Of a DNA stretch of 64,000 bases, positions 4,156 through 45,430 are shown one piece after another (position 1 is the stretch's first letter; each line of letters opens with the position of its first letter). A program made the translations under genes and the position numbers. The notes under the pieces are model-generated. The model searched no databases. It worked only from the letters and a program-made list of their open reading frames with translations, and was not told the DNA's origin. The stretch comes from Rickettsiales bacterium. Its GTDB lineage: Bacteria; Pseudomonadota; Alphaproteobacteria; Rickettsiales; UBA1997. The stretch covers positions 4,308 through 68,307 of the forward strand of contig CANEVP010000005.1 in assembly GCA_947442475.1 (NCBI GenBank). The letters run 5' to 3'.

Positions 4156-4240
4156 TGGTGCGGATAGAGGGACTTGAACCCACATGCCTTGCGGCGCTAG
4201 ATCCTAAGTCTAGTGCGTCTGCCAATTTCGCCATATCCGC
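4156..4240 (-). tRNA. tRNA-Leu (anticodon TAG), CCA encoded
   Basis: Hand-folded from the reverse complement GCGGATATGGCGAAATTGGCAGACGCACTAGACTTAGGATCTAGCGCCGCAAGGCATGTGGGTTCAAGTCCCTCTATCCGCACCA. 7-bp acceptor GCGGATA/TATCCGC, anticodon stem CTAGA/TCTAG with loop CTTAGGA, long variable arm (type II) and a TTCAAGT T-loop. One T-T mismatch in the T-stem. Confidence 0.85.
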
Positions 4241-8320: not shown

Positions 8321-8674
8321 TTATATACAGTTGTAAGCGCCTTCACCAGAGATGGCGGCTACGATTGTTGGAGCGCCAAACATTGCAGCAATACCCATTG
8401 CAACACCGATCATCAAACCCCAAGAAACTTTACCTGTGAAGAAACCGATACCAACTGAGATAATTGCAAAAGCCGCGAAAGCTTTACCGCCGTTACCAGT
8501 AACAATTTTAAGTGCGTTACACATGGTGTAAACAAGAACGTTAGAGTTAACATCATTAGGAGCAGTTGCAGCAAAAGCGTCAGATGACAAAACCGGTACA
8601 ATCGCCGGGGCAACTGCTAAAAAGATAAAAGACAGAAGAGCTGCTTTCACCAAAAAAGAAGAAAGTTTTTTCAT
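8321..8674 (-). CDS. virB2: TrbC/VirB2-like type IV secretion pilin candidate
   Basis: 117 aa. Long signal-like leader ending SDAFA|A, then two hydrophobic, Gly/Ala-rich segments separated by a short polar loop (FFTGKVSWG). This size and architecture are typical of VirB2 pilins. virB4 and virB6 are present elsewhere in the window. Confidence 0.5.
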   Translation of the reverse strand: MKKLSSFLVKAALLSFIFLAVAPAIVPVLSSDAFAATAPNDVNSNVLVYTMCNALKIVTGNGGKAFAAFAIISVGIGFFTGKVSWGLMIGVAMGIAAMFGAPTIVAAISGEGAYNCI

Positions 8675-30051: not shown

Positions 30052-30918
30052 TTAAGAAATCGTAAGATTATATTTCTGACCCAAATAAGTCTCCACCACC
30101 TGACGTTCCGTTGTTTGCAGCGCGCGGCTAAAGATGATTATTTCAGCAATGTCGCCATTTAAATAATGAGTTAAATATCTGCCAATCGCAGCTCCCGAAT
30201 AAGATGTTAAAGCTGAGTTAAACCCAACTCCAGCATCGTCCGCAGTGCCTCCACCATTGATCCAATATTTTTGACCAGCAGCCACATTAAACCAGAAGGT
30301 GTGAATTCTTGGCGTCGGGCTGGAATAAGCAGCGAGGGTAAAATCATTAAAAACACCGCTGGAATGAGCTTGAGTAATTGTGGTGTCTGAGCGGTAGCCT
30401 AAATGTAAATTGCCATTTGCAGCAGCGCTGTCGCCTCCCAAAAACATCATTTGACTGGTACTTGCTCTTCTTTGCTCGACCACAAAAATTGTGTAGGAAG
30501 AGCCAATTAGGGATGAGCCGTCAAAAGTTAAAAAATCATTAACTCCGTCAAATCTAATGGCCGGAAGCGATTCATTGAAAACTTTTTCGTAAAATTTTGG
30601 CTTACTGCTTGCGCTGGTTTGCGTCGCATTATTTTTAGATGCGGCATTTGAGCTATTGTCTTGCCAGACGCTGATTGAGCCGCCGTCAACTTGTTCTGAG
30701 AAAAGGAAGGAGCTTTCCAACGCGGTTTCGTACCAAATCGCCAAGTCGGCAATATCTTTCACTGAAGAATTTTGGGTAATGGTTTGAGCCGTTGAAAGTC
30801 GAGCCTTTAGAAACATCGCCTGCGACTTTATCACCCCAGCCACAATGGCAGCAATGATTGCCAAAACGACCGAGATTTCGACCAAGGAAAAGGCCGTGCG
30901 CAGAGATTTTTTTGGCAT
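30052..30918 (-). CDS. Modular type IV pilin-like protein: prepilin-type N-terminus plus LamG/concanavalin-like lectin module
   Basis: 288 aa. The N-terminus MPKKSLRTA|FSLVEISVVLAIIAAIVAGV fits the class III signal / N-methylation consensus except for Ala instead of Gly at -1. The C-terminal ~190 aa have the LamG_3 pattern (IRFDGVNDFLTF…YTIFVV…GDIAEIIIFSRALQTTERQVVETYLGQKY). Confidence 0.7.
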   Translation of the reverse strand: MPKKSLRTAFSLVEISVVLAIIAAIVAGVIKSQAMFLKARLSTAQTITQNSSVKDIADLAIWYETALESSFLFSEQVDGGSISVWQDNSSNAASKNNATQTSASSKPKFYEKVFNESLPAIRFDGVNDFLTFDGSSLIGSSYTIFVVEQRRASTSQMMFLGGDSAAANGNLHLGYRSDTTITQAHSSGVFNDFTLAAYSSPTPRIHTFWFNVAAGQKYWINGGGTADDAGVGFNSALTSYSGAAIGRYLTHYLNGDIAEIIIFSRALQTTERQVVETYLGQKYNLTIS

Positions 30919-30919
30919 T

Positions 30920-31684
30920 TTATTTAGCTAAAAAATTAATCGGACCCGTAGCGTGACCGTGAATAAATTGGTCGAGATAGGCGTTTCCTGAGGAGTACAT
31001 GTCTTTGACATCGCCAAACCAAATGATTCTACCTTCATAAAGCATGGCGATTTTATCAGCGATTTTGCGCGCTGAATTCATGTCGTGAGTAATGGTGATT
31101 GTGGTGGCACCCAGATGTTTCGAGTTCGAAATGATTAAGTCATTAATCACGTCCGCCATGATTGGATCGAGACCAGTTGTTGGCTCGTCGAAGAAAATAA
31201 TTTCAGGATTACTCGCAACGGCGCGCGCTAAAGAGGCGCGTTTTTGCATGCCGCCGGAAAGTTCTGACGGATAAAGATCGGCAACTTTTTCGCTCAAACC
31301 GACATCTTTTAATTTTGAAATGGCGATTTCGCGTGCTTCTTTTTTGTTGATTTTTTTGTGATTGAGCAAGCGGAACGCAACATTTTCCCAGATCGGTAAT
31401 GAATCAAATAAAGCGCCGCCCTGAAATAAAAATCCGAATTTCTCCATTAACTTGTCACGCTCTTTGTCGTTAAGACGCGAAACTTCAACATCGTCAATTT
31501 TAATGCTGCCAGAAGTTGCCTCTATTAGACTGGCAATGGTTTTAATTAGAACCGATTTGCCAGAACCCGAGCCGCCTAAAATGACAACTGACTCACCTTT
31601 ATTAACCACAAAATCAACGCCTTTGAGAACCTGCTTTTCGCCGAAATTTTTAGTGAGATTTGAAACGGTTAATTTTGTGGTCAT
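30920..31684 (-). CDS. mlaF: ABC transporter ATP-binding protein, MlaF-like
   Basis: 254 aa. Walker A GGSGSGKS, signature LSGGMQKR, Walker B IIFFDEPTTGLD, and the MlaF-like C-terminal tail YLDQFIHGHATGP. Its stop is 1 nt from the pilin ATG. Confidence 0.75.
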   Translation of the reverse strand: MTTKLTVSNLTKNFGEKQVLKGVDFVVNKGESVVILGGSGSGKSVLIKTIASLIEATSGSIKIDDVEVSRLNDKERDKLMEKFGFLFQGGALFDSLPIWENVAFRLLNHKKINKKEAREIAISKLKDVGLSEKVADLYPSELSGGMQKRASLARAVASNPEIIFFDEPTTGLDPIMADVINDLIISNSKHLGATTITITHDMNSARKIADKIAMLYEGRIIWFGDVKDMYSSGNAYLDQFIHGHATGPINFLAK

Positions 31685-31696
31685 TTTAATTTTTAT

Positions 31697-32476
31697 TTAT
31701 TTCTTCTCTGCCAATTTTTTTTCGATCAATTTCTTAAGTGTCACGTAATCAACATATCCTTCAGAAATTTCGCCATTTACGAAGAAAGTCGGCGCTGATT
31801 TAATTTGCAGAACTTTTGCTACTTCCATTCTTGCGGTAAGGATTTTTTCTTGCAGAGCTTTGTCAGCAAGACAGCTTTTGAATTTTGCTGAACTCATGCC
31901 GTCAAGGCTGGCAATTGCTTCTAATTTATCAGCAAATTTTTCGTCAAAAGCCCAAGCATCTTGGGTTTTAAAAAGAGCTTTTACCGTAGCGTAATATTTG
32001 CTGGTGGCTTCGGCTTTATTTTCATTAGCTTGGCAGTAAGCAAACATCGCACCAACCAAAGCAGATTGATTTAATGGAAAGTTACGGAAAGCGAATTGCA
32101 CTTTGCCAGTGTCGATAAATTCAGTTTTTAATTTTTCGAAAGATTCGCGAGTGAAAGCCGCACAGTGCGGGCAAGAAAGTGAAGCATATTCAACCATCAC
32201 AACCGGCGCAGATCTTTCGCCCAAAACATAATCAGAAGCAGAGATTTTTAAGATCTCGCTATTTTTGCGAGTTTCTTCCAAAGCAGCGGCATCAGCATTA
32301 ACTGCGGCGTTAACGGAATCTTGCTCATGTTGCTTGGGCGCTTCTACTGCAGCAGCTTGATCGTTATATTTTTCAGAAGTTTTGTTCTTATAATTGTGGG
32401 TCACCAGAGCGGCAAGGCCAACAAGAACAAGGACAGAAACAGCAATAGCGGTGCGCTTTTTAGATTGTTTTTGCAT
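31697..32476 (-). CDS. dsbA: DsbA-family thiol:disulfide oxidoreductase (Com1-like), membrane anchored or secreted
   Basis: 259 aa. N-terminal hydrophobic anchor and the thioredoxin-fold active site EYASLSCPHCAAF. Confidence 0.8.
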   Translation of the reverse strand: MQKQSKKRTAIAVSVLVLVGLAALVTHNYKNKTSEKYNDQAAAVEAPKQHEQDSVNAAVNADAAALEETRKNSEILKISASDYVLGERSAPVVMVEYASLSCPHCAAFTRESFEKLKTEFIDTGKVQFAFRNFPLNQSALVGAMFAYCQANENKAEATSKYYATVKALFKTQDAWAFDEKFADKLEAIASLDGMSSAKFKSCLADKALQEKILTARMEVAKVLQIKSAPTFFVNGEISEGYVDYVTLKKLIEKKLAEKK

Positions 32477-33347: not shown

Positions 33348-33908
33348 ATGCAGAAAATATTTTTAATTTTGCTCGCCGCTTTTTTGGTTTCTTGCGGTCC
33401 GTCAAAAGAAAGTCCGGTGATTTATTTTAGTAATGGCAGCCTTGCGCCAGTTAGAGATATTCAATGCAACTGGGCGGGAAATAATGCTCTAACTTTGCCA
33501 TTGTTAAACCCCGGTGACAGCCAAAGTCAGTCTTTTTACATGCACAGCATGTCTGATTTTTTTGGCACAGTGACGATTAATTGGCGTAATGATCGTGGTG
33601 AAAGAATTCAGCGCGAATTTGTTTTTCGCCGCAACCACTTGCCTAGCATTGAGGACACTACAACTTACAACTACGTACAATTTTATTTAGATCAGGAAGA
33701 GTTGGAACTAGTTAGCAGCGATGCTCCCGACCTAAGCGGCAAAACTCGCAAAATGGAAAGAATGTTGGCACAAATGAAGCAGGCTTACCTCAATATTCAT
33801 AGTCCCGATTCAATTCCAACCAGTGAAACTTCACTTATTCGAGTGCAACATATTGACCCGCAAAAAGATAGGTCGGTGCCTTACTGGGAGAATAGCAACT
33901 CACTGTAA
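33348..33908 (+). CDS. Hypothetical lipoprotein
   Basis: 186 aa with the lipobox FLVSC|G after a short hydrophobic leader. Coupled to the GT2 gene by a 2-nt gap. No recognisable domain. Confidence 0.5.
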   Translation: MQKIFLILLAAFLVSCGPSKESPVIYFSNGSLAPVRDIQCNWAGNNALTLPLLNPGDSQSQSFYMHSMSDFFGTVTINWRNDRGERIQREFVFRRNHLPSIEDTTTYNYVQFYLDQEELELVSSDAPDLSGKTRKMERMLAQMKQAYLNIHSPDSIPTSETSLIRVQHIDPQKDRSVPYWENSNSL

Positions 33909-34167: not shown

Positions 34168-34201
34168 AAGGAGAGGTGAGTTTTTAAGCTTACCTCTCCT
34201 T
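34168..34201. terminator. Hairpin downstream of the giant pilin gene
   Basis: Stem aaggagaggt(gag)/(ctt)acctctcctt, 10-13 bp, 30 nt after the stop at 34232, with T-rich flanks on both strands. Confidence 0.4.
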
Positions 34202-34231: not shown

Positions 34232-36496
34232 CTACTGGTTACACTTATAGACTAGATAATTCCCTGATGAGTTAACTTGCCGACCACAGTTAGCAGTAGT
34301 GCAATAAGATGTTAGCCACGCGGTTATATCCCAAGCATTTAAAGTTGATCCAGAAAGTGAATATACCGGACTCTGCACCAAAGCATAATGTCCACTATGT
34401 CCGCTACAGTTTATTGTTGAAAGGTGGAGCTGAGGACTTCCGACCCATCCGCTTCCACCTCTTCCTACTGAAGAAACAAGTGTCCAAGTAGTATTAGATG
34501 GGGCATATACCGAGCAAGATCCACTGGTGCTAGCAGCACCAGTTGCTGTACAAGTATAGTTTTTGGTTCCGGTGTAGCCTGTAGCATCACAAGCAAAGGT
34601 ACCACTGCCACCAGCAGCGTAAGCCAATCCGGTTTTAGCGGTCCAGCCGGTTCCAGCTGCTGCAGTGCAAGTGATTGCAGAACAAGTGCCGCCAGTAATG
34701 GTTGCAGCACCTGACGCCGTACAAGTGTAGTTTTTAGTTCCAGTGTAACCAGTGGCATTGCAAGAAAAAGTACCACTACCACCAGTAGCATAAGCCAATC
34801 CGGTTTTAGCGGTCCAGCCGGTTCCAGCTGCTGCAGTGCAAGTGATTGCAGAACAAGTGCCGCCAGTAATGGTTGCAGCACCTGACGCCGTACAAGTGTA
34901 GTTTTTAGTTCCAGTGTAACCAGTGGCGTCACAAGCAAAACTGCCGCTGCCACCAGCAGCGTAAGCAAGTCCAGATTTAGCATTCCAACCAGTTCCAGAC
35001 GCTGCGGTGCAAGTTATCGGACTACAAGTTCCACCAGTTATAGTTGCAGCACCTAAAGCATCGCAAGTGTAGTTTTTAGTTCCAGTATAACCAGCGGCAT
35101 TGCAAGAAAAAGTACCACTGCCACCAGTAGCATAAGCAAGTCCAGATTGAGCTTCATAGCCAGTTCCAGATGCTGCGGTGCAAGTTATCGGACTACAAGT
35201 TCCACCAGTTATAGTTGCGTCAGCGCCATCTGTGATACAAGTGTAGTTTTTAGTTCCGGTGTAGCCTGCAGCGTCACAAGTAAAAGTACCACTGCCATCA
35301 GCAGCGTAAGCAAGGCCAGATTTAGCGCCGTAACCAGTTCCGGCCGTTGCAGTACAAAAAACCTGAGTACATGTTCCAGCAATTGATGCCGCACCCGGCG
35401 TAATGCAAGTGTAAGTTGGAGAACCTACATATCCGGCTTGGCAAGGAGAGTTAATAGCCGTAGCGCTTGTTTTGTAAGCAAGCCCGGTTTTATTATTGAA
35501 ACCAGACACACCAGTAATTGAGCAAGTTGTTGCCACGCATGATGATCCCGACAAATAATATCCAGAATTACAATCGCAAGATCCGCTATTATAGGTATAC
35601 ACTTTACTTCCCGAACAACTGTAGTTTATTGAATCGGAACTGTCGAAATTAGAAGCGTTGCAAGCAAGATTTTGGTTAATGCCTTGATTCACTTTTGCAC
35701 CGCTATTAATTCCAATGGTAGTTGGAACATCGCATTGCACCACGCAATCTCCACCAACTCTAGTGTAACCAGTAGTACATCCAACCAAGTTTTGATCTTG
35801 AAGCGTAGTCAAATTAGCATCAGCTAAGAAATATTTTTTGTTTTTGAAAAAAACCAAATCGTCAAAAGTAGTGCCACTGCGATTGGTACCCGAAATTAAA
35901 TTAGCATCAGATCCTGATGGCATATTTTCAAGTTCATCAACATCAGTTGGAGCATTGATTTCCGTAGTTGCAAGAGACGAAACCGCACCTCTTTGATTTT
36001 TGCCACGACTAATAACTGCAAAAATTGCATTAGATTCTTCCACACCCAAAGATGATGAATATCTACTAACAACAATGTCGCCTTCCTGATCTACAAACTT
36101 GCTGGGAGTTGTCGCAACAGTGAAAGTTGAATCAATCACGTAAACCAATTTATTGCCGTAATCATCTTCGGCAAAAGCAGCAGCAAGATTTAAATCTTTA
36201 ACCGGCAACATACCATAAACCACAGTATCAGCAGCGCAGGAAATTTCACTGCCGTAAGTAGCGTCATTTTTAGGAATAGCAATTGAGGCAGGACAAGGAA
36301 GTCTCTTGTGAGCGCCGGAGTAAACTTTTAAAGCTTTATAAATTTGCCCAATGCGATCGTTGGTGACTTTAATTTTATTGGTAGAATTGCTACTGGTTTG
36401 AACCGATAAAATTCCAACTAGCACGGCGGAAGCAACAAGCACAACTACGGAAAGTTCAGTTAAGCTGAACGCCGATCTCAATTTTTTAAATTTCAT
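34232..36496 (-). CDS. Giant modular type IV pilin-like protein with Cys-rich tandem repeats
   Basis: Start placed at the internal ATG (36496): MKFKKLRSA|FSLTELSVVVLVASAVLVG, a prepilin-type N-terminus with Ala at -1. A region of about 230 aa follows, then an EGF-like Cys-rich region (CDCNSGYYLSGSSC), six 56-57-aa four-Cys repeats and a 95-aa C-terminal domain. Confidence 0.7.
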   Translation of the reverse strand: MKFKKLRSAFSLTELSVVVLVASAVLVGILSVQTSSNSTNKIKVTNDRIGQIYKALKVYSGAHKRLPCPASIAIPKNDATYGSEISCAADTVVYGMLPVKDLNLAAAFAEDDYGNKLVYVIDSTFTVATTPSKFVDQEGDIVVSRYSSSLGVEESNAIFAVISRGKNQRGAVSSLATTEINAPTDVDELENMPSGSDANLISGTNRSGTTFDDLVFFKNKKYFLADANLTTLQDQNLVGCTTGYTRVGGDCVVQCDVPTTIGINSGAKVNQGINQNLACNASNFDSSDSINYSCSGSKVYTYNSGSCDCNSGYYLSGSSCVATTCSITGVSGFNNKTGLAYKTSATAINSPCQAGYVGSPTYTCITPGAASIAGTCTQVFCTATAGTGYGAKSGLAYAADGSGTFTCDAAGYTGTKNYTCITDGADATITGGTCSPITCTAASGTGYEAQSGLAYATGGSGTFSCNAAGYTGTKNYTCDALGAATITGGTCSPITCTAASGTGWNAKSGLAYAAGGSGSFACDATGYTGTKNYTCTASGAATITGGTCSAITCTAAAGTGWTAKTGLAYATGGSGTFSCNATGYTGTKNYTCTASGAATITGGTCSAITCTAAAGTGWTAKTGLAYAAGGSGTFACDATGYTGTKNYTCTATGAASTSGSCSVYAPSNTTWTLVSSVGRGGSGWVGSPQLHLSTINCSGHSGHYALVQSPVYSLSGSTLNAWDITAWLTSYCTTANCGRQVNSSGNYLVYKCNQ
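34520..35545 (-). repeat. Six tandem 171-bp (57-codon) coding repeats inside the giant pilin gene
   Basis: Protein repeat unit: C-TAA(S/A)GTG(Y/W)xAK(S/T)GLAYAxGGSG(T/S)F(S/A)C(D/N)A(A/T)GYTGTKNYTCxxxGAATITGGTCSxIT. At DNA level the string aagccaatccggttttagcggtccagcc… recurs at 34621 and 34792 (171-bp period) with long identical runs. Confidence 0.9.
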
Positions 36497-36595
36497 CTCA
36501 GTTTTATGTAGCTTTAGGAATGAGGTCAAAGAGTGATGATTCATCAAAAGATAGCTACCGCATCATTGCAATAGTATTTTGTCGATTTTTTTAGA

Positions 36596-38679: not shown

Positions 38680-39695
38680 TTAATATCTGCTAAACATTTC
38701 TTTGATTTCTTCAATATTCGAAGTTTTGGTGAGAGCCATCATTGTCAAAATTCTAGATTTTTGCGGGCTCAAATTATCCGCCGTTACAAAACCTAATTCA
38801 CTGTCATTTAACTCAACATTTGGCACCACTAAACCTGCTCCAACTCTAGTGCTTCTAACAATCACTACGCCTTTTTTTCTAGCTTCAATTAATCTTTCCA
38901 AGCTGGCTTTGTTCAGATTGCCATCACCAACACCTGCGATAACGATTGCTTTTGATCCCGACTCAACCAAGCGATCAATCACGCTAGGCTCTTGTCCTGC
39001 ATGAGCGTAGATGATATCAACCTTTGGCAAATCTTCTGACTTTTTAATATTGAAAATAGTTTCTGCGGTGTGAGTTCTGATTGGCTCATAATAAATTTCT
39101 GGCTTGCCGTAATAGACATATCCGATCGGGCCAGAGTTATTTGCTTTAAATGAGTTAACTTGAATCGTACTGGTTTTTGAAACATCGCGAGCAGCCAAAA
39201 TATCGTCGTTCATCAACACCAATACACTTTTGCCATAAGCAACTTTGCTGCTGGCAAGCGCTACAGCATTATATAAATTGAGAGCTCCATCAGCGCTTAA
39301 AGAAGTTGCTGGACGCATCGCTCCAACCACCACAACTGGCTTTTGGCTTTTAACAACTAGGTTCAGGAAATAGGCCGTTTCTTCTAAGGTGTCGGTACCG
39401 TGAGTGATAACAATTCCATCAACTGAACGCTTGGCTAAAAGCTCATTTACTCTTTTGGCAATTTTAAGCCAAACAGCATTATCGATCTCTTGGCTTGAGA
39501 TTTGAATTAATTGCTCAGCGTCAATATCAGCTAATTTTTCAATACCGGGAACGGTTTTAATGATTTTTGCGATATCAATTTTGATGCGAAATATTTAGAG
39601 CCAACCGAAGAATCTCCAGCGCCAGATATGGTGCCCCCAGTTGCAAGAATAAAAATATTTTTGGCTTTAGCATGAGCGTTGCAAGAAATTGCCAC
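38680..39695 (-). pseudogene. ansB: L-asparaginase (type II family), disrupted by a frameshift and lacking room for a signal peptide
   Basis: Downstream frame (38680-39594): KIDIAKIIKTVPGIEKLADIDAEQL…GIVITHGTDTLEETAYFLNL…KPVVVVGAMRPATSLSADGALNLYNAV… Upstream frame (39531-39695): …KNIFILATGGTISGAGDSSVGSKY, which holds the catalytic TGGT motif. The homology jumps frame at about 39584-39597. The upstream end abuts tRNA-Thr at 39704. Confidence 0.7.
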
Positions 39696-39703
39696 GCAGA
39701 AAA

Positions 39704-39778
39704 TGGTGCTATCGACTGGAATCGAACCGGCGACCTCTTCATTACCAATGAAGTGCTCTACCCCTGAGCTACGATAGC
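39704..39778 (-). tRNA. tRNA-Thr (anticodon GGT), CCA encoded
   Basis: Hand-folded from the reverse complement GCTATCGTAGCTCAGGGGTAGAGCACTTCATTGGTAATGAAGAGGTCGCCGGTTCGATTCCAGTCGATAGCACCA. Acceptor GCTATCG/CGATAGC, D-arm GCTC/GAGC, anticodon stem CTTCA/TGAAG with loop TTGGTAA, and T-loop TTCGATT. One C-A mismatch in the T-stem. Confidence 0.8.
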
Positions 39779-39901: not shown

Positions 39902-42900
39902 TTACTTAGAATCGCCGCCTTCGTCACCGCCTCCATCGCCTCCACCAGCTTCATCACCGTCAGCACTACTTTTAGATTGATCTCCGCCAGCATCGCCATC
40001 GCCACCACCTTTGCTGCCACCTTTATTTCCAGCCTTACCTATTGCCTCTCGAGTTTTGGCAGCTTTTTCCAATCCTTTGTTACCTAATTTTTTACTGGCA
40101 CCAGCGGCACGTTTTTGTATTGACGCCAAAACACCCTTGACTTTGCTCATCATTTCAAGTGGATCGGCATTTCCACCATCCAACTTTGATCCACCGACTA
40201 ATAGTGCAGCCATTCCTGAAATTTCGTTCATGAATTTATAAAGCAAGAACATCACCATCGCACCCTTCAAAATGGTGAGAACCTTGATCTGCCCATTTTC
40301 GCCAAAAATATTCATTAAAATTGGAATGCTCAAACCAATCATTTCAAGACCCGGCATCGTACCAAAATCATCCAGATTTATTAGACAGGCAACACTATCA
40401 CTCATTGGATCCAATATTTTATCTCCGGTATCATCGCAGTCAGGGAGTTTACCATTAACATATGGATCAATTGAGCCGTCCAAGTTTTTACAAATTTTAG
40501 AGCAAGAAATTGTTTTAGATGGAGCCTGTCCAGAGAAGGTGGCGCTACCAATCATGGTTTTATCCATGATTGTTACAAATAATGCGATATAGGCAAAAAG
40601 TATCATAGGCTGCAAGCAGTATCCTATTAACTCTGTCACCCATTTTTTGAAAATATCAGACGTCTTACTAAACATCGCTGTGGGTATAATCACTGGCGAG
40701 ACGAAGACTAAAATAATAATACCTGCCGCCGAAGCCAAAAAAATATGCAAAGCGCGTAAGGTAGCTGCTAAAAAGAAGAAACCGAAGAACATTACGGCAA
40801 TGGCAAAATAAATTCCTACCCCCGTGGAACTAACTCCCGCAATGTTGAAGCTGAAATATCCAGCAAAAATTAATGACGCAATATTGGCAACACTGACCTC
40901 TGGACCATAGCCCAAATAGCGCATCATTTTACAATCAAGCGTATCCCACAAAGCCAAATATTCTTTGCCAGAAGGATAGGTGCGACCAGAAGAAACTTGC
41001 GAACCATCCGGCAATGAAATCATCCCAAATTGACAGCCATCCCTTTGAGACTCAGATTGCTGAGAGCTAATTTTAAAGACCATCTGCGAAAACTCTGTCG
41101 AGGCGCCGTAAACTCCCTTGAAGAAGAAACCTTGCCACGCATCGCCCGTAGCAAAAAAAAGCACCAAGGTAATTTTGAGCAGATACATTAGGATGTCTTT
41201 TTTCTCTCCGATATTCGCCTTACCCAGCAAGATGTTCATGCCGTAGAACATAATCGATAAAGTCAGAACCATCTTCACCGAATCCTTCATAGTGTTTTGC
41301 ACTATTGAGAAAAATGAAGTCTCTTTCACCGTATTGCCTTTTTGATAAATGAAGTTGCCGTTTACTTTGTAATTACCACTTGGACAAGATCCATCTGGAG
41401 ACGGATATTCATTTGCGTTAGCGCATTTACTGTGACCCGCAACGTTGTAGAAAAGATTTTCTAAAGTTTCTTTCACGCATTGCGCAATTGGCGCCGAAAA
41501 GTGCTTCTGACTATTTAGAATAAAGCTGCCGCCGTAGGCGGTTTGGTTTTGAGAGTCACCGACAAAATTCAAGCAAGCATCTGAGAAATAAGGCGATCCT
41601 AAATTGGTTTCATATTGATAATCTGCTAAACTGGTGACAGTGCAGTGAGTTAAATATTGGCAATAATTTTTACATTTGCCCGCCTTTGCATTGTAGGAAC
41701 AATCACTATTTCTGATTTCACTTTTTGAAGAGCAATTGCCTGCCTTAACGTCATCTTGAGTGATCATGGTCCATCTTCCATTGGAGTATTTTCCATCTTG
41801 GTAATAATCACAATATTCCGAACCCCCACCAACAGCAAAGTTATAAGGGCATAAGCTGTAGGTTTGGGCGCAAATTAAACTACCATTGTCGAGTGATTTG
41901 GTTGAGAAGGTGATGCCTTCCACATTGCATAATTGACCAACTTTACAAAAAGTTTTAACGCCTGTTACCGGATTACTCGCCACATCACCGCCGCCAGAAA
42001 GGCCCGATGCTCCATTTAAGCCACTAGTAACGCCCCCGGTAACCACGCCAACGCTGCTCGAAAGCGCTGTATAATTTAAACAAATAAATTCGGCGCTGCG
42101 TTTTTTACAGCAGGCATAGGCATTTTGTAATTCAACAATTCTTGCGGCAGTGACGGGAGCATTAGTTAAGGGGTCCATATTGCCCGGAACTAAATTATAT
42201 TTCTTACAGTTATAATTACCTGCCGCAGTGCCTCTCATGTAATATTTCTGCTTCGGATATTTGCCATTCACCCTCTGCGTCACGTCGTAACAGCTTTGGT
42301 AACCTCCATCGGGATTATCCTCTACCTCTTCACCGCCGTAATACCATTCGCGATAAGTTTTATCTCCTGAGGCTTCGAGAGTTAATTTTGAGGTTTGTCC
42401 GTCGCGAATATAGCCCTCAACCGCATCTTTTACTTTCTGCTTTTTATTCGGAGCACTGATATCATATGTTAAAGGATTTGCCGTCACCCATTGCGCACCA
42501 CAAACTTCAGTATGATTATAAGTGTTAAGGGCAATTCCGTAAATTATGGCAAGCTGGGCAATCGCGATACCCCAGCTCGCAGTGGCCACAGCAACAGCTG
42601 CACCACATGAATAATTTTGCTGGAGGAGAGCTCTTTTCACTCCCTCAATGGCTCCTCTAGTCAGATCGTAAGCGTCTAGAAGTGGAACTGGAAGTATTCT
42701 AGGAATTATGCTTCCAGTTGAGCATATGCCATTCATCGCGGCAATCGAGGTTTTTACTGCCACATATGTTGTCAATATTACGGTGAAGCATACTGGATTT
42801 GACAAAACAAATTCCGCGTCCTTACCGGCATTTGTCATGTCAAAATTTAAGGTATCTGGAACGCCACTAGAGCTGCAACTGCGGGTTCTACCAACGCCAT

Positions 42901-43021
42901 AATCAGTTGCGCTTTCCGCGTAAGAACCTTGTAGAGAAGTAACAAAAAAACAGCAAAAAACACCGACAGCAAGCAGCAAACGCGAAGCTCTTCTAAAAAA
43001 TGTTTGCTGAAAAATTATCAC
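39902..43021 (-). CDS. virB6: Giant VirB6/TrbL-like type IV secretion inner-membrane protein
   Basis: 1039 aa, immediately downstream of virB4 (21-nt gap). Signal/TM at the N-terminus, a Cys-rich soluble region of about 330 aa, then a block of at least 6 predicted TM helices (residues ~570-900) as in VirB6/TrbL, and a Gly/Asp/Lys-rich acidic tail (…GGGDGDAGGD…GGGDGGGDEGGDSK). Large VirB6 paralogs after virB4 are typical of Rickettsiales rvh systems. Confidence 0.6.
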   Translation of the reverse strand: MIIFQQTFFRRASRLLLAVGVFCCFFVTSLQGSYAESATDYGVGRTRSCSSSGVPDTLNFDMTNAGKDAEFVLSNPVCFTVILTTYVAVKTSIAAMNGICSTGSIIPRILPVPLLDAYDLTRGAIEGVKRALLQQNYSCGAAVAVATASWGIAIAQLAIIYGIALNTYNHTEVCGAQWVTANPLTYDISAPNKKQKVKDAVEGYIRDGQTSKLTLEASGDKTYREWYYGGEEVEDNPDGGYQSCYDVTQRVNGKYPKQKYYMRGTAAGNYNCKKYNLVPGNMDPLTNAPVTAARIVELQNAYACCKKRSAEFICLNYTALSSSVGVVTGGVTSGLNGASGLSGGGDVASNPVTGVKTFCKVGQLCNVEGITFSTKSLDNGSLICAQTYSLCPYNFAVGGGSEYCDYYQDGKYSNGRWTMITQDDVKAGNCSSKSEIRNSDCSYNAKAGKCKNYCQYLTHCTVTSLADYQYETNLGSPYFSDACLNFVGDSQNQTAYGGSFILNSQKHFSAPIAQCVKETLENLFYNVAGHSKCANANEYPSPDGSCPSGNYKVNGNFIYQKGNTVKETSFFSIVQNTMKDSVKMVLTLSIMFYGMNILLGKANIGEKKDILMYLLKITLVLFFATGDAWQGFFFKGVYGASTEFSQMVFKISSQQSESQRDGCQFGMISLPDGSQVSSGRTYPSGKEYLALWDTLDCKMMRYLGYGPEVSVANIASLIFAGYFSFNIAGVSSTGVGIYFAIAVMFFGFFFLAATLRALHIFLASAAGIIILVFVSPVIIPTAMFSKTSDIFKKWVTELIGYCLQPMILFAYIALFVTIMDKTMIGSATFSGQAPSKTISCSKICKNLDGSIDPYVNGKLPDCDDTGDKILDPMSDSVACLINLDDFGTMPGLEMIGLSIPILMNIFGENGQIKVLTILKGAMVMFLLYKFMNEISGMAALLVGGSKLDGGNADPLEMMSKVKGVLASIQKRAAGASKKLGNKGLEKAAKTREAIGKAGNKGGSKGGGDGDAGGDQSKSSADGDEAGGGDGGGDEGGDSK

Positions 43022-43042
43022 CGAATTCTGATTTTTTTTAAA

Positions 43043-45430
43043 TTATTTAGGACGGCTGCGTTCGTAATAAATTGGCAACCAATCGTCAGGATCTTCGCCA
43101 ACCTCGTCAATGATTTCATCCATTAGAATCACGGTGTCAATACGAGCAGAAAGAACACGAATTACGTCATCCATTCCACCCAAATCAATGCGCGCAATTA
43201 CGCCGTCATTATCTTGTTTTACGAGGAAGAAACGCGTTGAAGGATCTGTCGTTTTTACCAAGTTAAATTCGCGCTCACTCAACATGAAAACTTCGCGATA
43301 AAGTATCGTAGCTTTCAAGTTTGGCAGAAAAATCTGCGTTGAGGTTTGTTGCACCAAAGTGTCGGAAATACTACTTTTGGCCGCGTCTTCCACCGATTGC
43401 GTCGCAAATACTACAAAGGTGTTAAGTTTTCTTAAAACTTTGAGCCAGTCTTTAATTTTTGGCGCAAAAACTGGGTTTCCAATCAAGGCCCAAGCTTCAT
43501 CGAGAACGATCATGGTTGGCGAACCATCAAGCGAACTTTGAATACGATGAAATAAATAAAGCAGCACCGGACCAATAGAGGCCTTATCTTGCAAGATGTG
43601 CGACATTTCAATTCCGAAAGAGCGCGCCGACGTGAAATCGATCATGTCATCTTCATTATCAAACAACTTGGCGTGCGAACCTGTTGTATGCCACATGGCT
43701 AATCTACCAGCTAAAGTTCCTGGACCGCCCAAGCCCATGAAAGGCGCGATATTTCGGATTCTTCTTTGTTCTTTCGGCAGTTTGTAATTTCCTTTTACCG
43801 CTTCGTTAATGCGCTCAATTTCGTGAGCTGGCAAAGCCACGTCGCCAACCATTACCAGTGCCTTCATGAAGTCGATTAAGAATGAGCGATTTTCAGCAGT
43901 ATCTTCGAGTTGAAATGGATTAAAGCCGGAAGTTTTTGCCGCATCCGGAATCATGTAACGGCCACGAATCGCGCGAATAAAAATTTCTGCACCACGATCT
44001 TTATCAAAGAAAAATAAACGGCCGTTAAATTTTTGCGCCTGCGCGCAAAGGAAGTTTAGCAATACCGTTTTACCCGCACCAGTCGGCCCGATAATCATAC
44101 TGTGACCAACGTCACGCACGTGAAAACTGAAAAAATAAGGCGTGCCCGAAACGGTGTTAAGCACCGTCACCGCGTCACCCCAGTGATTTTTCTTTCTTTT
44201 GCCTGACGGATAATTGTGAAAAGAGGCAAAAGCCGCGATATTTAAAGTGTTCACCGTACTGCGGCGCGCCATAAACTCAGCATTGCCGGGTAGTTGCGCC
44301 CAATAAGCTGGCTCCAAATTCATTTTCTCGCGAGCACCGGTAATACCAGTGTTTGAAAGCTCAACTACTGCAAGCGACAAAGCGCTTTCCAAAGCTTTTG
44401 GCGATTCTTCAATACATAAAACTGACATGTGATGCAAGCCAAAACCAAACTCACCACTCATCGCTGAATCTAGCGCCGAGTCAATTTCTTGGATTTGCGA
44501 AACCGCAACGTCTTCCGACTGAATCAAGCGCCGTTGTTGCAACTGCATCGAACTAATCGCCACCATGCGATTAATAAAAGAAAATGATTGGCTGATAATG
44601 AGCTCAAAAGGCATCTGCATAAAACCATCAAAAACTCCGGCGTGAGTTGATGGGCGGTATTCTTTAATTGAAACCATGCCGGCATATTTGGCGCCAGTTG
44701 GGTGATGAACTTCAACTGATTTATTGCCGAAATAAAGTCGACTAATTGGCAAGTGATGCGAGATTTGACCCAAGGGAATTGTCATTGGTTGCGAGTGACC
44801 GCAATTAACCAAGCGCGAGAAAAATTCTAGAATTTCTGAAGTAACGCCATCCTCGCTTTCATTAATGCCTAAAACGCGCGGACCGTAATTGCCGTAACCA
44901 TTTAAAATACGCTCAGTCATCTCATCAAGTTCGTCAAAAGCTTCGCGCATGTAATTTTCCCACGAAGATTTATCAGCGCGATGCTGCAATTTTTTCGCCA
45001 TATGTTCCAGCACCGCAGCACCCGAAGTGTCAGCTCCACGAATAATCGTGAAATAATGTTCATTAATAAAACTTCTGGTGCCTGAGTGCTTTTTTTCCCA
45101 TTCACTATTAACGCGCGCCGAAAATAAATCAGGCATTTCGCCATCAGGAAAACCTTTTTCTTTGCGACGAATGGTGTGAAAATAAAGCGAAAAATTGCCT
45201 GACGCCATACCTTTCAAAAGGTTGTTTCTGGCATTTTTTTTGAGATCAATATCAGCGTCATCAGCGGTCTCGAAGGCGAATCCTTTAATTTTAATAACAC
45301 GAACTAACTCTTCTTTGTGAGTTAAAATCGTGTCTGAATTCCAATGGCATTTATAAGGAATAAAATACGCCGCCGAAACCTCTCCCTTGGTGACTTTTTC
45401 TTTTGCTGGCTTAACGGTTGAAAGACGCAT
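43043..45430 (-). CDS. virB4: Type IV secretion system ATPase VirB4
   Basis: 795 aa. N-terminal CagE/TrbE/VirB4 pattern (YFIPYKCHW…, VIKIKGFAFETADD), Walker A GPTGAGKTVLLNFL, Walker B MIVLDEAW and the C-terminal FATQS motif. Confidence 0.9.
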   Translation of the reverse strand: MRLSTVKPAKEKVTKGEVSAAYFIPYKCHWNSDTILTHKEELVRVIKIKGFAFETADDADIDLKKNARNNLLKGMASGNFSLYFHTIRRKEKGFPDGEMPDLFSARVNSEWEKKHSGTRSFINEHYFTIIRGADTSGAAVLEHMAKKLQHRADKSSWENYMREAFDELDEMTERILNGYGNYGPRVLGINESEDGVTSEILEFFSRLVNCGHSQPMTIPLGQISHHLPISRLYFGNKSVEVHHPTGAKYAGMVSIKEYRPSTHAGVFDGFMQMPFELIISQSFSFINRMVAISSMQLQQRRLIQSEDVAVSQIQEIDSALDSAMSGEFGFGLHHMSVLCIEESPKALESALSLAVVELSNTGITGAREKMNLEPAYWAQLPGNAEFMARRSTVNTLNIAAFASFHNYPSGKRKKNHWGDAVTVLNTVSGTPYFFSFHVRDVGHSMIIGPTGAGKTVLLNFLCAQAQKFNGRLFFFDKDRGAEIFIRAIRGRYMIPDAAKTSGFNPFQLEDTAENRSFLIDFMKALVMVGDVALPAHEIERINEAVKGNYKLPKEQRRIRNIAPFMGLGGPGTLAGRLAMWHTTGSHAKLFDNEDDMIDFTSARSFGIEMSHILQDKASIGPVLLYLFHRIQSSLDGSPTMIVLDEAWALIGNPVFAPKIKDWLKVLRKLNTFVVFATQSVEDAAKSSISDTLVQQTSTQIFLPNLKATILYREVFMLSEREFNLVKTTDPSTRFFLVKQDNDGVIARIDLGGMDDVIRVLSARIDTVILMDEIIDEVGEDPDDWLPIYYERSRPK

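What the first reader, a model, noticed from the sequence alone, without database searches (positions are those of the whole stretch)
34232..36496. ~750-aa pilin-like protein carrying eukaryote-like four-cysteine repeats (sushi/CCP- or EGF-like) and a distinct C-terminal domain
Behind the prepilin N-terminus and a region of about 230 aa (with an RLPCPA motif) come three parts. First, an EGF-like Cys-rich stretch (GCTTGYTRVGGDCVVQC…CDCNSGYYLSGSSCV). Second, six 56-57-aa repeats, each with 4 Cys and the pattern C…G(Y/W)…GLAY…G(T/S)FxC…GYTGTKNYTC…GGTC. The spacing (F/Y-x-C-x2-GY-x-G-x4-C) is reminiscent of complement-control/sushi modules. Third, a 95-aa Trp/Cys-containing terminal domain. By my count there are more than 35 cysteines, which fits the dsbA gene in the locus. 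A filament-anchored stalk of disulfide-locked modules ending in a putative binding domain looks like a host-cell adhesin.
Basis: partly seen in the sequence, partly recalled or inferred. Interest (0 to 1): 0.75.

Follow-up and report, generated by a model that had tools for sequence, protein, structure and literature searches.

The report
Modular type IV pilin with cysteine-module stalk
This gene of a freshwater Rickettsiales-like bacterium encodes a pilus subunit that carries a long stalk of seven disulfide-type beta modules and an unknown end domain, most likely a pilus-tip adhesin; the design principle is known, but the stalk and end domains are new and rare, and a sushi or EGF origin could not be shown.

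Summary
Window 34232-36496(-) is an intact 754-aa ORF with 38 Cys. It has a prepilin-like N-terminus, an RLPCPA head, 4-Cys repeats and a 93-aa Trp/Cys end domain.

The N-terminal 235 aa belong to a real type IV filament subunit family. A profile of that family matches alpha1 of solved pilins (E 6e-9). Cargo-free members close MSHA-like pilus operons.

There are seven 4-Cys modules, not six. The "EGF-like stretch" is one more module flanked by two short CxCxxGY hairpins.

The modules have sushi-like Cys spacing and a confident all-beta model, but sushi membership was not shown:
- they lack the conserved Trp;
- Pfam Sushi matches 2 of 70 modules, best E 0.02;
- hhalign against real CCPs gives 11% probability;
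- Foldseek ranks CCP proteins first, but not significantly.

The modules are a rare family of their own, with 217 hits among 1.84 billion representatives. The end domain matches nothing.

Near-identical pilin modules in related strains carry different cargo: 10 modules, or a glycine-rich tail. The same cargo also occurs on VirB2 pilins.

Best reading: a modular, tip-displayed type IV pilin adhesin, a new variant of a known kind. Filament assembly and the ligand are untested.

The parts
34232..36496 (-). Whole CDS: 754 aa plus stop. A modular type IV pilin-like protein.
   Evidence: identical to database protein P0001.
36401..36496 (-). aa 1-32. Class III signal-peptide-like leader MKFKKLRSA, then FSLTELSVVVLVASAVLVGILSV (Phe+1, Glu+5, hydrophobic alpha1-N). 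Ala, not Gly, at -1.
   Evidence: TIGR02532 scores 11 bits against a cut-off of 16.3. Homologues pass N_methyl/TIGR02532. Family profile matches alpha1 of solved pilins at E 6e-9. Ala at -1 in 77 of 96 modular relatives.
35792..36400 (-). aa 33-235. 'RLPCPA' pilin head module. Invariant in the family: LPCPA...G.E..C...G..P...Y...G...FDD.
   Evidence: Alignments A2 and A4. Stand-alone 213-270-aa members match the GspG profile to position 103-105 of 134, below cut-off, and lie in MSHA-like or T4P clusters.
35744..35779 (-). aa 240-251. Hairpin 1, CTTGYTRVGGDC.
   Evidence: Read from the sequence; recurs in homologues.
35576..35740 (-). aa 253-307. 4-Cys module, subtype a.
   Evidence: counted among the 7 module stretches of P0001.
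35537..35578 (-). aa 307-320. Hairpin 2, CDCNSGYYLSGSSC. Fits C-x-C-x2-G-Y-x6-C, the EGF_2-type pattern as I recall it.
   Evidence: Sequence. Weak EGF_Teneurin and EGF_laminin hits in homologues only.
35369..35530 (-). aa 323-376. 4-Cys module, subtype b.
34514..35362 (-). aa 379-661. Five tandem 4-Cys modules, subtype c, 55-57 aa each.
   Evidence: Tandem repeat scan; identity matrix; AF2 single module pLDDT 89.7, five strands.
34235..34513 (-). aa 662-754. C-terminal Trp/Cys beta domain with 4 Cys, ending ...VYKCNQ. Candidate ligand-binding head.
   Evidence: Conserved in 13 relatives (A5). Modelled as beta strands, block pLDDT 69-86. No PDB sequence hit at E<=10 and no significant fold match.
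34168..34201 (.). 15-bp perfect hairpin, 30 nt after the stop, between convergent genes. Likely a bidirectional terminator.
30052..30918 (-). Second prepilin-like gene, 288 aa. RTA|FSLVE N-terminus plus a LamG-like head. A likely partner subunit of the same filament system.
   Evidence: 33% identity, E 9e-44 to P0016, which carries Laminin_G_3 and N_methyl (N_methyl just under Pfam's cut-off).
31697..32476 (-). DsbA-like thioredoxin-fold protein, a possible oxidase for the 19 putative disulfides. Heads a tight trio with an ABC ATPase (30920-31684) and the second pilin.
   Evidence: Thioredoxin_4 E 5e-39, DSBA E 8.5e-7. Gene spacing.

Best explanation
The gene encodes a modular type IV pilin.

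Shown or strongly supported: the first ~235 residues are a type IV filament subunit module, with a class III-type leader, Phe+1, Glu+5, a hydrophobic alpha1 helix and a conserved globular head with an LPCPA...C disulfide motif. The remaining ~520 residues are cargo. The cargo is seven tandem ~55-aa all-beta modules with four invariant Cys each, two short Cys hairpins, and a 93-aa Trp/Cys beta domain.

Inferred mechanism:
1. The protein is inserted into the inner membrane by its N-terminal helix.
2. A DsbA-type oxidase forms up to 19 disulfides in the periplasm.
3. A prepilin peptidase removes the leader.
4. The pilin module is incorporated at the tip of a type IV filament. A 520-aa appendage cannot be packed in the shaft.
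5. The modules then form a semi-rigid stalk of roughly 20-30 nm. That figure assumes each module is as long as a CCP (about 4 nm, from my recollection of CCP dimensions) and was not measured on the models. The stalk holds the end domain away from the filament to bind a ligand on a host, prey or surface.

Cargo is swapped and the module number changes between closely related strains on a nearly constant pilin module. This fits a receptor-recognition role under diversifying pressure.
For: Pilin module:
- The A2 family profile hits alpha1 of solved T4 pilins and GspG (E 6e-9 to 1e-3).
- Relatives pass Pfam N_methyl or TIGR02532 cut-offs, including ones with Ala at -1.
- Cargo-free homologues are the last gene of an MSHA-like operon in Methylovorus mays: MshL secretin above cut-off, an MshE-type ATPase with a c-di-GMP motif, and a GspF-like platform.
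- Other homologues lie within 10 kb of PilB/PilC/PilT-like genes in 8 more loci.

Lineage: homologues occur in MAG UBA6187, which is reported to encode type 4 pili and the rvh T4SS (PMC9352585). The window carries rvh-type VirB4 and VirB6.

Cargo:
- 774 module instances in 213 proteins. Of 578 full-length instances, 550 have all four Cys, and most of the rest are cut alignment ends.
- AF2 pLDDT 89.7 for one module and 81.7 for two modules plus the end domain, all beta.

Variation on a constant carrier:
- P0002 is syntenic, 76% identical, and has 10 modules.
- L004 has an 89%-identical N-domain but 3 modules plus a Gly_rich_2 tail, then a second interrupted copy of the pilin module.
- Other family members end in LamG, B_lectin or Sushi domains.
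- The same cargo is also fused to TrbC/VirB2 pilins, so it behaves as a filament-displayed cassette.

Precedent: modular pilins PilB and PilC of S. sanguinis are tip-located adhesins (PMC8179133, PMC9934059).

Context: a second LamG-type pilin and a DsbA-like gene lie 1.8-4 kb away.
Against: - No prepilin peptidase, assembly ATPase, platform or secretin is in the 64-kb window. None lies within 10 kb of any Rickettsiales-like homologue. Whether this genome has the machinery is unknown.
- The cleavage site has Ala instead of the canonical Gly at -1, and the curated prepilin HMM is below cut-off in this protein.
- The globular part of the pilin module was not modelled.
- Nothing shows binding, surface exposure or expression.
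- The end domain has no recognisable relative, so 'binding head' rests on position and analogy only.
Confidence: 0.6

Rival explanations
1. Membrane-anchored periplasmic or cell-envelope protein. The pilin-like N-terminus serves only as a signal-anchor (or the protein is a pseudopilin-like part of a secretion or competence apparatus). The Cys modules span the periplasm or decorate the cell surface without being part of an extended pilus.
For: The gene is an orphan among housekeeping genes, with no pilus genes within 10 kb here or in Rickettsiales-like relatives. Ala at -1 and a sub-threshold prepilin HMM score. Stand-alone relatives resemble GspG-type pseudopilins.
Against: Phe+1 and Glu+5 are conserved across the family, which matters for filament assembly rather than for a plain anchor. 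A stalk estimated at 20-30 nm is longer than a periplasm needs. The cargo is shared with VirB2 pilins and ends in lectin-type domains. Scattered minor-pilin genes are common.
Confidence: 0.22
2. The modules are true sushi/CCP domains taken from a eukaryote and used for host mimicry. They have diverged beyond profile detection.
For: Cys spacing, 4-residue linkers and the core F-x-C-x2-3-GY-x-G-x4-C resemble CCPs. Sushi is the only Pfam family hit by more than one module (2 of 70, E 0.02), and a P0011 module scores E 0.011. The PDB profile search gives DAF/CD55 CCPs at E 0.018-0.4. hhalign aligns C2 and C3 in register (P 0.0026). The top-ranked Foldseek hits are beta2-GPI, Crry, factor H and MASP-1. 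P0039 has a bona fide Sushi next to such modules.
Against: None of these reaches significance: hhalign probability 11.5%, Foldseek E >= 0.13 with probability <= 0.15, and zero hits for the single-module model. The hallmark Trp between C3 and C4 is absent. The exhaustive profile search finds 217 proteins, where eukaryotic sushi proteins, if recognised, should add many thousands. Disulfide pairing could not be tested.
Confidence: 0.12
3. Assembly artefact or decaying gene. The repeat array is a collapsed or chimeric assembly of paralogues and the ORF is not a functional gene.
For: Repeats break assemblies. L004 shows a stop-interrupted second copy and a contig end right after it. An IS-type transposase neighbours the orthologues. 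The neighbouring asparaginase gene of the window looks frameshifted.
Against: The ORF is uninterrupted for 754 codons. The repeats are 72-87% identical at DNA level, diverged enough to assemble. All 28 module Cys are kept. A syntenic 896-aa orthologue is intact. A clean hairpin follows the stop.
Confidence: 0.04

Closest known systems
Modular type IV pilins: Streptococcus sanguinis PilB (pilin + vWA) and PilC (pilin + Ig-like + ConA-like lectin). Raynaud et al. 2021 (PMC8179133); Shahin et al. 2023 (PMC9934059).
   Same: An N-terminal class III signal and pilin module carries non-pilin modules at the C-terminus. Inferred tip display and adhesion. The PF13385 lectin architecture listed there also occurs in this family (P0004, P0005, P0016) and in the window's second pilin.
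   Different: The cargo here is a seven-module Cys-rich stalk plus an unknown end domain, neither covered by any Pfam or NCBIfam model. The host is a diderm Rickettsiales-like MAG. The residue at -1 is Ala. The gene is an orphan. Nothing has been tested experimentally. No Sushi or Rickettsiales entry was found in the supplementary files of PMC8179133 that are held.
Large minor pilins of T4b pili (CofB/TcpB), as summarised in PMC8179133.
   Same: A pilin module is followed by a linker, a beta-repeat region and a terminal beta domain. It is thought to cap the pilus and mediate binding.
   Different: No sequence or fold match was detected. CofB has no Cys-module array. Trimerisation is unknown here.
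Sushi / CCP / SCR modules (PF00084), for example factor H, CR1, CR2, DAF, beta2-GPI.
   Same: About 55-60 aa, four Cys with similar spacing, short linkers, beads-on-a-string arrays, a beta-rich fold, and a GY-x-G core after C2.
   Different: No conserved Trp, usually no C-x-x-P, below every curated or statistical threshold, and a separate rare family in the profile search.
GspG / MSHA-type (pseudo)pilins.
   Same: Stand-alone relatives of the N-terminal module match the GspG profile over ~105 of 134 positions and sit in MshL-MshE-GspF-like operons.
   Different: Scores are far below the GspG equivalog cut-off (33-44 bits against 88.85). The LPCPA/SHG.NG/FDDLV motifs define a distinct subfamily. 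The window protein adds 520 aa of cargo.

Membership tests
Type IV pilin / type IV filament subunit (class III signal peptide; PF07963, TIGR02532) | Short basic leader followed by Phe(+1), Glu(+5) and ~20 hydrophobic residues | tested here: met
   MKFKKLRSA|FSLTELSVVVLVASAVLVGILSV. The same layout holds throughout alignments A2 and A4.
Type IV pilin / type IV filament subunit | Gly at position -1 of the prepilin peptidase site | tested here: not met
   Ala at -1. Ala is the majority residue in modular relatives (77 Ala, 18 Gly, 1 Ser). Short relatives mostly have Gly (21 Gly, 11 Ala). From my recollection of P. aeruginosa pilin mutagenesis, Ala is the one tolerated substitute; I did not check this.
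Type IV pilin / type IV filament subunit | Curated HMM above cut-off | tested here: not met
   TIGR02532 11 bits against 16.3, and no Pfam N_methyl hit for this protein. Met in relatives: P0013 at 24-26 bits; P0049-P0054 at 22-26 bits against 21.2.
Type IV pilin / type IV filament subunit | Long alpha1 helix homologous to that of solved pilins | tested here: met
   The A2 profile against PDB gives Geopilin, PilA, GspG, PilE and TcpA at E 6e-9 to 1e-3 over profile positions 13-70/86.
Type IV pilin / type IV filament subunit | Globular alpha-beta pilin fold after alpha1 | tested here: inconclusive
   The only evidence is a partial GspG profile match to position ~105 of 134 in stand-alone relatives.
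Type IV pilin / type IV filament subunit | Same genome encodes a prepilin peptidase and assembly machinery | not testable with these tools
   Absent from the 64-kb window. Relatives lie in MSHA-like or T4P clusters. The related lineage UBA6187 is reported to have T4P (PMC9352585).
Modular pilin (sensu Raynaud et al. 2021) | Pilin module fused at its C-terminus to one or more modules that are not part of pilus biogenesis | tested here: met
   aa 1-235 are the pilin module and aa 240-754 are cargo. The cargo is exchangeable between relatives and also occurs on VirB2.
Sushi / CCP (PF00084) | Four conserved Cys in ~60 aa with CCP-like spacing and short linkers | tested here: met
   C-x25/26-C-x11/12-C-x11-13-C with 4-residue linkers. 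All four Cys are present in 550 of 578 full-length instances.
Sushi / CCP (PF00084) | Conserved Trp between C3 and C4 | tested here: not met
   No Trp column in alignment A1. The segment reads TASGAATITGGTC.
Sushi / CCP (PF00084) | Profile match at the curated or a significant level | tested here: not met
   Pfam gives 0 hits for the protein and 2 of 70 modules at best E 0.02. hhalign against 14 real CCP sequences gives probability 11.5%. The PDB profile search gives a best CCP E of 0.018.
Sushi / CCP (PF00084) | CCP beta-sandwich fold | tested here: inconclusive
   For the two-module model, CCP proteins rank 1-4, 7, 10 and 11, but at E 0.13-1.4. The single-module model gives no hit at E<=10.
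Sushi / CCP (PF00084) | C1-C3 and C2-C4 disulfide pairing | not testable with these tools
A natural Cys-loss test was uninformative because all four Cys are almost always kept.
EGF-like domain | Six Cys forming three disulfides in ~40 aa; profile match | tested here: not met
   Only 2-3-Cys hairpins are present (aa 240-251 and 307-320). There is no Pfam EGF hit in this protein. The fibrillin match is E 1.2. Homologues give weak EGF hits below cut-off.
Kelch-type beta-propeller (raised by the PDB hit to a designed SAKe protein) | ~47-aa blades with the Kelch signature, without Cys | tested here: not met
   The match (E 1.2e-9) rests on the repeated GL.YA.GG string across repeats. The period is 57 aa with 4 Cys, and the AF2 model shows separate elongated beta modules.

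The most novel reading that the evidence does not exclude
The Cys-module stalk and its interchangeable end domains (Trp/Cys domain, Gly_rich_2, lectins, Sushi) form a portable display cassette. Aquatic Rickettsiales-like bacteria graft it onto two unrelated filament subunits, type IV pilins and T4SS VirB2 pilins, and reshuffle it between strains. This would give them a reprogrammable receptor-binding system analogous to phage tail-fibre swapping. It would be the first case of VirB2 pilins carrying large adhesin modules.
Probability: 0.3. Interest if true: 0.8.

Novelty: new variant of a known kind. Interest (0 to 1): 0.6.

Why it matters
Type 4 pili have been proposed as attachment devices of basal and extracellular Rickettsiales, and as a trait present before obligate intracellular life (PMC9352585, PMC10847448). 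No adhesin on them has been named. This family offers concrete candidates: pilins with long disulfide-type stalks and swappable heads that differ between near-identical strains. It also defines two uncharacterised domain families, the 4-Cys module and the Trp/Cys end domain. It extends the catalogue of modular pilins to a lineage and a cargo type not listed before. If the modules prove to have a CCP fold, they would be an unusual bacterial radiation of that fold. If the VirB2 fusions are real surface structures, they would change how T4SS pili are thought to contact targets.

Tried and rejected
- Pfam and NCBIfam on the whole protein gave nothing usable.
- phmmer against PDB gave a designed Kelch-like SAKe protein at E 1.2e-9. 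I rejected it as a repeat-composition match.
- The module profile against PDB gave only weak DAF hits mixed with spurious nanobody framework hits.
- Foldseek of the two-module plus end-domain model gave no hit at E<=1e-3 against PDB or BFVD. Foldseek of the single module gave no hit at all.
- The end-domain profile against PDB gave zero hits.
- hhalign of the modules against CCPs harvested from real PDB alignments gave 11.5% probability.
- I tried to infer disulfide pairing from natural loss of Cys pairs. It was uninformative, because the Cys are almost never lost.
- The look-up of encoding contigs for the window protein itself found no record.
It worked with the narrower A4.
- A search of the held supplementary files of PMC8179133 for Sushi, EGF or Rickettsiales architectures found nothing.
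- A literature search for sushi domain + pilin in bacteria found nothing relevant.
- tblastn for PilB, PilC and PilT near Rickettsiales-like homologues found none within 10 kb.
Full report
1. OBSERVATION

The ORF 34232..36547(-) is open for 771 codons. The ATG at 36496 gives 754 aa beginning MKFKKLRSAFSLTELSVVV. Close homologues start at the same place.

The protein has 38 Cys and 7 Trp. Tandem Repeats Finder reports a 171-nt unit x 4.6 copies at 84% identity (34533-35327).

Anatomy, in residue numbers of the 754-aa protein:
- 1-32: leader plus hydrophobic helix.
- 33-235: head with RLPCPA at 65-70.
- 240-251: hairpin CTTGYTRVGGDC.
- 253-307: 4-Cys module 'a'.
- 307-320: hairpin CDCNSGYYLSGSSC.
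- 323-376: module 'b'.
- 379-661: five 'c' modules.
- 662-754: end domain with 4 Cys and 4 Trp.

The c modules are 72-87% identical at DNA level and 68-87% at protein level. Module b is 39-44% identical to them. So the array is old enough to be assembled reliably.

A 15-bp perfect hairpin follows the stop codon.

The 'EGF-like stretch' hides a seventh module of the same family.

2. SURROUNDINGS

The window is ordinary chromosome of a Rickettsiales-like alphaproteobacterium. queA and ubiE flank the gene. VirB6-like and VirB4 genes of an rvh-type T4SS lie at 39902-45430, and a plain VirB2 lies at 8321-8674. The rest is ribosomal proteins, pdhAB, rpoD, dnaG, tlyC-like and similar housekeeping genes.

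No pilus assembly gene is present.

A DsbA-like gene (31697-32476) exists, but two opposite-strand genes separate it from the target. It forms a tight trio with an ABC ATPase and a second prepilin-like gene at 30052-30918. That gene encodes 288 aa with RTA|FSLVE and is 33% identical (E 9e-44) to the LamG-bearing head of P0016.

3. THE N-TERMINAL MODULE IS A TYPE IV FILAMENT SUBUNIT

In this protein the curated prepilin model is sub-threshold (11 bits against 16.3), and the residue at -1 is Ala. The family evidence is nevertheless strong.

- Relatives pass N_methyl or TIGR02532, including ones with Ala at -1.
- The domain recurs as stand-alone proteins of about 205 to 360 aa, including one named as a Sideroxydans MAG, and in loci of Azonexus and Methylovorus. 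Invariant positions include LPCPA, G, C, G, P, Y, G and FDD.
- A profile of that alignment hits the alpha1 helix of solved pilins and of GspG at E 6e-9 to 1e-3.
- In Methylovorus mays the stand-alone homologue is the last gene of an operon. The operon has an MshL secretin above cut-off, a TPR protein, an MshE-type ATPase with the c-di-GMP motif, and a GspF-like platform.
- Eight other loci show PilB, PilC or PilT homologues within 10 kb.
- Phe+1 and Glu+5 are kept.

Among modular relatives Ala at -1 is the rule (77 Ala, 18 Gly, 1 Ser).

4. THE CARGO MODULES

I extracted 125 distinct modules from the family by their Cys pattern and aligned 70 of them (A1). C1 to C4 and a Tyr before C3 are invariant there, though the extraction pattern itself required them. 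The independent check is the HMM search below. Consensus: xTCxxxxxTGxxxxxxLxYAxxxxxxxxCxxxGYxGxxxYTCTxxGxATxxxGxC.

Tests for a sushi relationship:
- Pfam on the whole protein: no hit.
- Pfam on 70 single modules: Sushi for 2 of them, best E 0.02. It is the only family hit more than once.
- A1 profile against PDB sequences: DAF/CD55 CCPs at E 0.018-0.4, mixed with nanobody frameworks.
- hhalign of A1 against 14 authentic CCP sequences taken from the printed PDB alignments: probability 11.5%, P 0.0026, 24 columns aligned with C2 and C3 in register.
- AF2 of one module with the 70-sequence alignment: pLDDT 89.7, five strands. Foldseek against PDB gives no hit at E<=10.
- AF2 of two modules plus the end domain: pLDDT 81.7, all beta. 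In Foldseek, ranks 1-4, 7, 10 and 11 are CCP proteins (beta2-GPI, Crry, factor H, MASP-1), but at E 0.13-1.4 and probability <= 0.15.

The conserved CCP Trp is absent.

An exhaustive HMMER search of A1 against 1.84 billion representatives returned only 217 proteins at E<=1e-3. The profile therefore does not recognise the large eukaryotic sushi family.

A local HMM search found 774 module instances in the 213 family proteins held. Of 578 full-length instances, 550 have all four Cys, so Cys pair loss could not be used to infer pairing.

Verdict on the modules: sushi-like in pattern, and a distinct rare family by every statistical test. The fold relationship is open.

One relative, P0039, carries a genuine Sushi domain after such modules (Pfam E 1e-11; strong matches to CR1, CR2 and factor H). 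So true CCPs do occur in this protein family.

The two hairpins fit the C-terminal half of an EGF signature, but there is no six-Cys EGF domain.

5. THE END DOMAIN

Thirteen relatives share the end domain. Its pattern is W.LV ... C.SS..GKY ... SG ... C.C ... C ... VY.C (A5). It is modelled as beta strands with block pLDDT of 69-86. It has no PDB sequence match at E<=10 and no significant fold match in PDB or BFVD. Its function is inferred only from its distal position.

6. THE FAMILY AND ITS VARIATION

The first search found 40 proteins. Their N-terminus is either the RLPCPA head or a LamG head (PF13385). Their C-terminus is the Trp/Cys domain, Gly_rich_2 (PF21722) or B_lectin.

P0002 is the syntenic orthologue, with gene order VirB4, VirB6, asparaginase, ubiE, queA, transposase, pilin. 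It is 76% identical over the first ~664 aligned residues and has 10 modules.

The nearest species representative in GTDB is a Lake Erken MAG (L004), whose N-domain is 89% identical. Its gene is 639 aa with three modules and a Gly_rich_2 tail. A second pilin-module copy with an in-frame stop follows it, and an IS-type transposase precedes it.

P0003 (70% identical over the first half) also ends in Gly_rich_2. A nearly constant carrier thus bears different cargo in close relatives.

Most are freshwater MAGs labelled Rickettsiales, Micavibrio or Alphaproteobacteria, often with several paralogues per genome. Cargo ranges from none to more than 2,500 aa.

Two of these loci are from UBA6187, an Athabascaceae MAG reported to encode type 4 pili and the rvh T4SS (PMC9352585). 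Type 4 pili have also been proposed to mediate attachment in Deianiraea-like Rickettsiales (PMC10847448).

7. AN UNEXPECTED EXTENSION

Among 175 module-bearing proteins, 93 have a type IV pilin N-terminus. Another 22 are fragments of pilin heads.

Seven have a TrbC/VirB2 N-terminus instead. P0117, P0150 and P0182 pass the Pfam TrbC cut-off. P0117 continues with a laminin-type EGF domain, and P0150 and P0182 end in Gly_rich_2; all three carry the 4-Cys modules. P0182 is present on six contigs in a housekeeping context.

The cargo therefore behaves as a cassette for display on filaments of two unrelated kinds.

8. MECHANISM

Shown:
- the domain order;
- pilin-family membership of the carrier;
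- conservation of all Cys;
- the beta-rich modular models;
- cargo variation.

Inferred:
- Sec-dependent insertion by alpha1-N;
- DsbA-type oxidation to as many as 19 disulfides;
- leader removal by a prepilin peptidase that accepts Ala at -1;
- incorporation at the filament tip, as proposed for the modular pilins PilB and PilC of S. sanguinis (PMC8179133, PMC9934059);
- a stalk of roughly 20-30 nm that presents the end domain to a ligand.

Rivals are an anchor-only envelope protein, true eukaryote-derived CCPs used for mimicry, and an assembly artefact. They are scored in the rival section.

9. COMPARISON AND NOVELTY

The design principle of modular pilins is published. The lectin-bearing LamG subtype of this family, including the window's second pilin, matches one of the commonest published architectures.

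New here:
- the 4-Cys module family and the end domain, neither in Pfam nor NCBIfam;
- their occurrence in Rickettsiales-like lineages;
- strain-level cargo exchange;
- the sharing of cargo with VirB2.

I file it as a new variant of a known kind.

10. LIMITS

- The pilin head was not modelled.
- Disulfide topology, surface exposure, processing and ligand are all untested.

Noticed in passing
window 30052-30918 (-), with 30920-31684 and 31697-32476: A second prepilin-like gene: 288 aa, RTA|FSLVE, with a LamG-like head. It is 33% identical (E 9e-44) to P0016. It is the last gene of a tight minus-strand trio, after a DsbA-like gene and an ABC ATPase (gaps of 12 and 1 nt). Pfam finds nothing in it.
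   Followed up: partly
P0115, P0117, P0149, P0150, P0182, P0192, P0204; locus L073 10001-12217: The same 4-Cys modules are fused to TrbC/VirB2 T4SS pilin N-termini in proteins of 650-1168 aa. Three were scanned and pass Pfam's TrbC cut-off; one of them also has a laminin-type EGF domain and the other two end in Gly_rich_2. P0182 is on six contigs among housekeeping genes, with a 292-aa LamG_3 protein nearby. I know of no described VirB2 with large C-terminal modules.
   Followed up: partly
L004 8648-12705: In the nearest species representative (a Lake Erken MAG) the syntenic pilin has a different cargo: 639 aa with a Gly_rich_2 tail. About 200 nt downstream lies a second copy of the pilin module with an in-frame stop, just before the contig end. 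An IS-type transposase lies directly upstream, as on the P0002 contig. This hints at cassette exchange or assembly breakage at this locus.
   Followed up: partly
L026 (2479 aa, 86 Cys), L041 (>2761 aa, 92 Cys), L038, L052, L043: The RLPCPA-type pilin module is a general carrier. Its cargo ranges from none (213 aa, Methylovorus) to more than 2,500 residues of other Cys-rich sequence in Pseudomonadota MAGs.
   Followed up: no
P0105, P0128, P0146, P0172, P0194: Giant proteins of 3.6-4.1 thousand residues carry 7-11 copies of the module. P0105 has a SUEL-lectin match just under the Pfam cut-off. Three of the five start with a signal-like hydrophobic stretch rather than a recognisable pilin motif; the other two do not.
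   Followed up: no
window 38680-39695 (-): The asparaginase gene looks disrupted. The N-terminal fragment with ILATGGTISG (39531-39695) and the 217-aa C-terminal ORF (38680-39333) are in different frames. The orthologue on the P0002 contig is intact at 350 aa. This is a pseudogene or a sequencing frameshift.
   Followed up: partly
window 39704-39778 (-) and 4156-4240 (-): tRNA-Thr(GGT) lies between the VirB6-like gene and the asparaginase remnant. tRNA-Leu lies near rplU.
   Followed up: no
P0049-P0054, P0022, P0036 (C-terminal ~100 aa after the pilin head): The closest short relatives add one Cys-rich extension with a ...KKCG..G.W......C ending, which keeps a Trp as in sushi or HRM-type domains. 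The only Pfam hint is HRM at E 0.2-0.4.
   Followed up: partly
window 34168-34201: A 15-bp perfect inverted repeat lies between the convergent lipoprotein gene (33348-33908, +) and the pilin gene. It is probably a bidirectional terminator.
   Followed up: no
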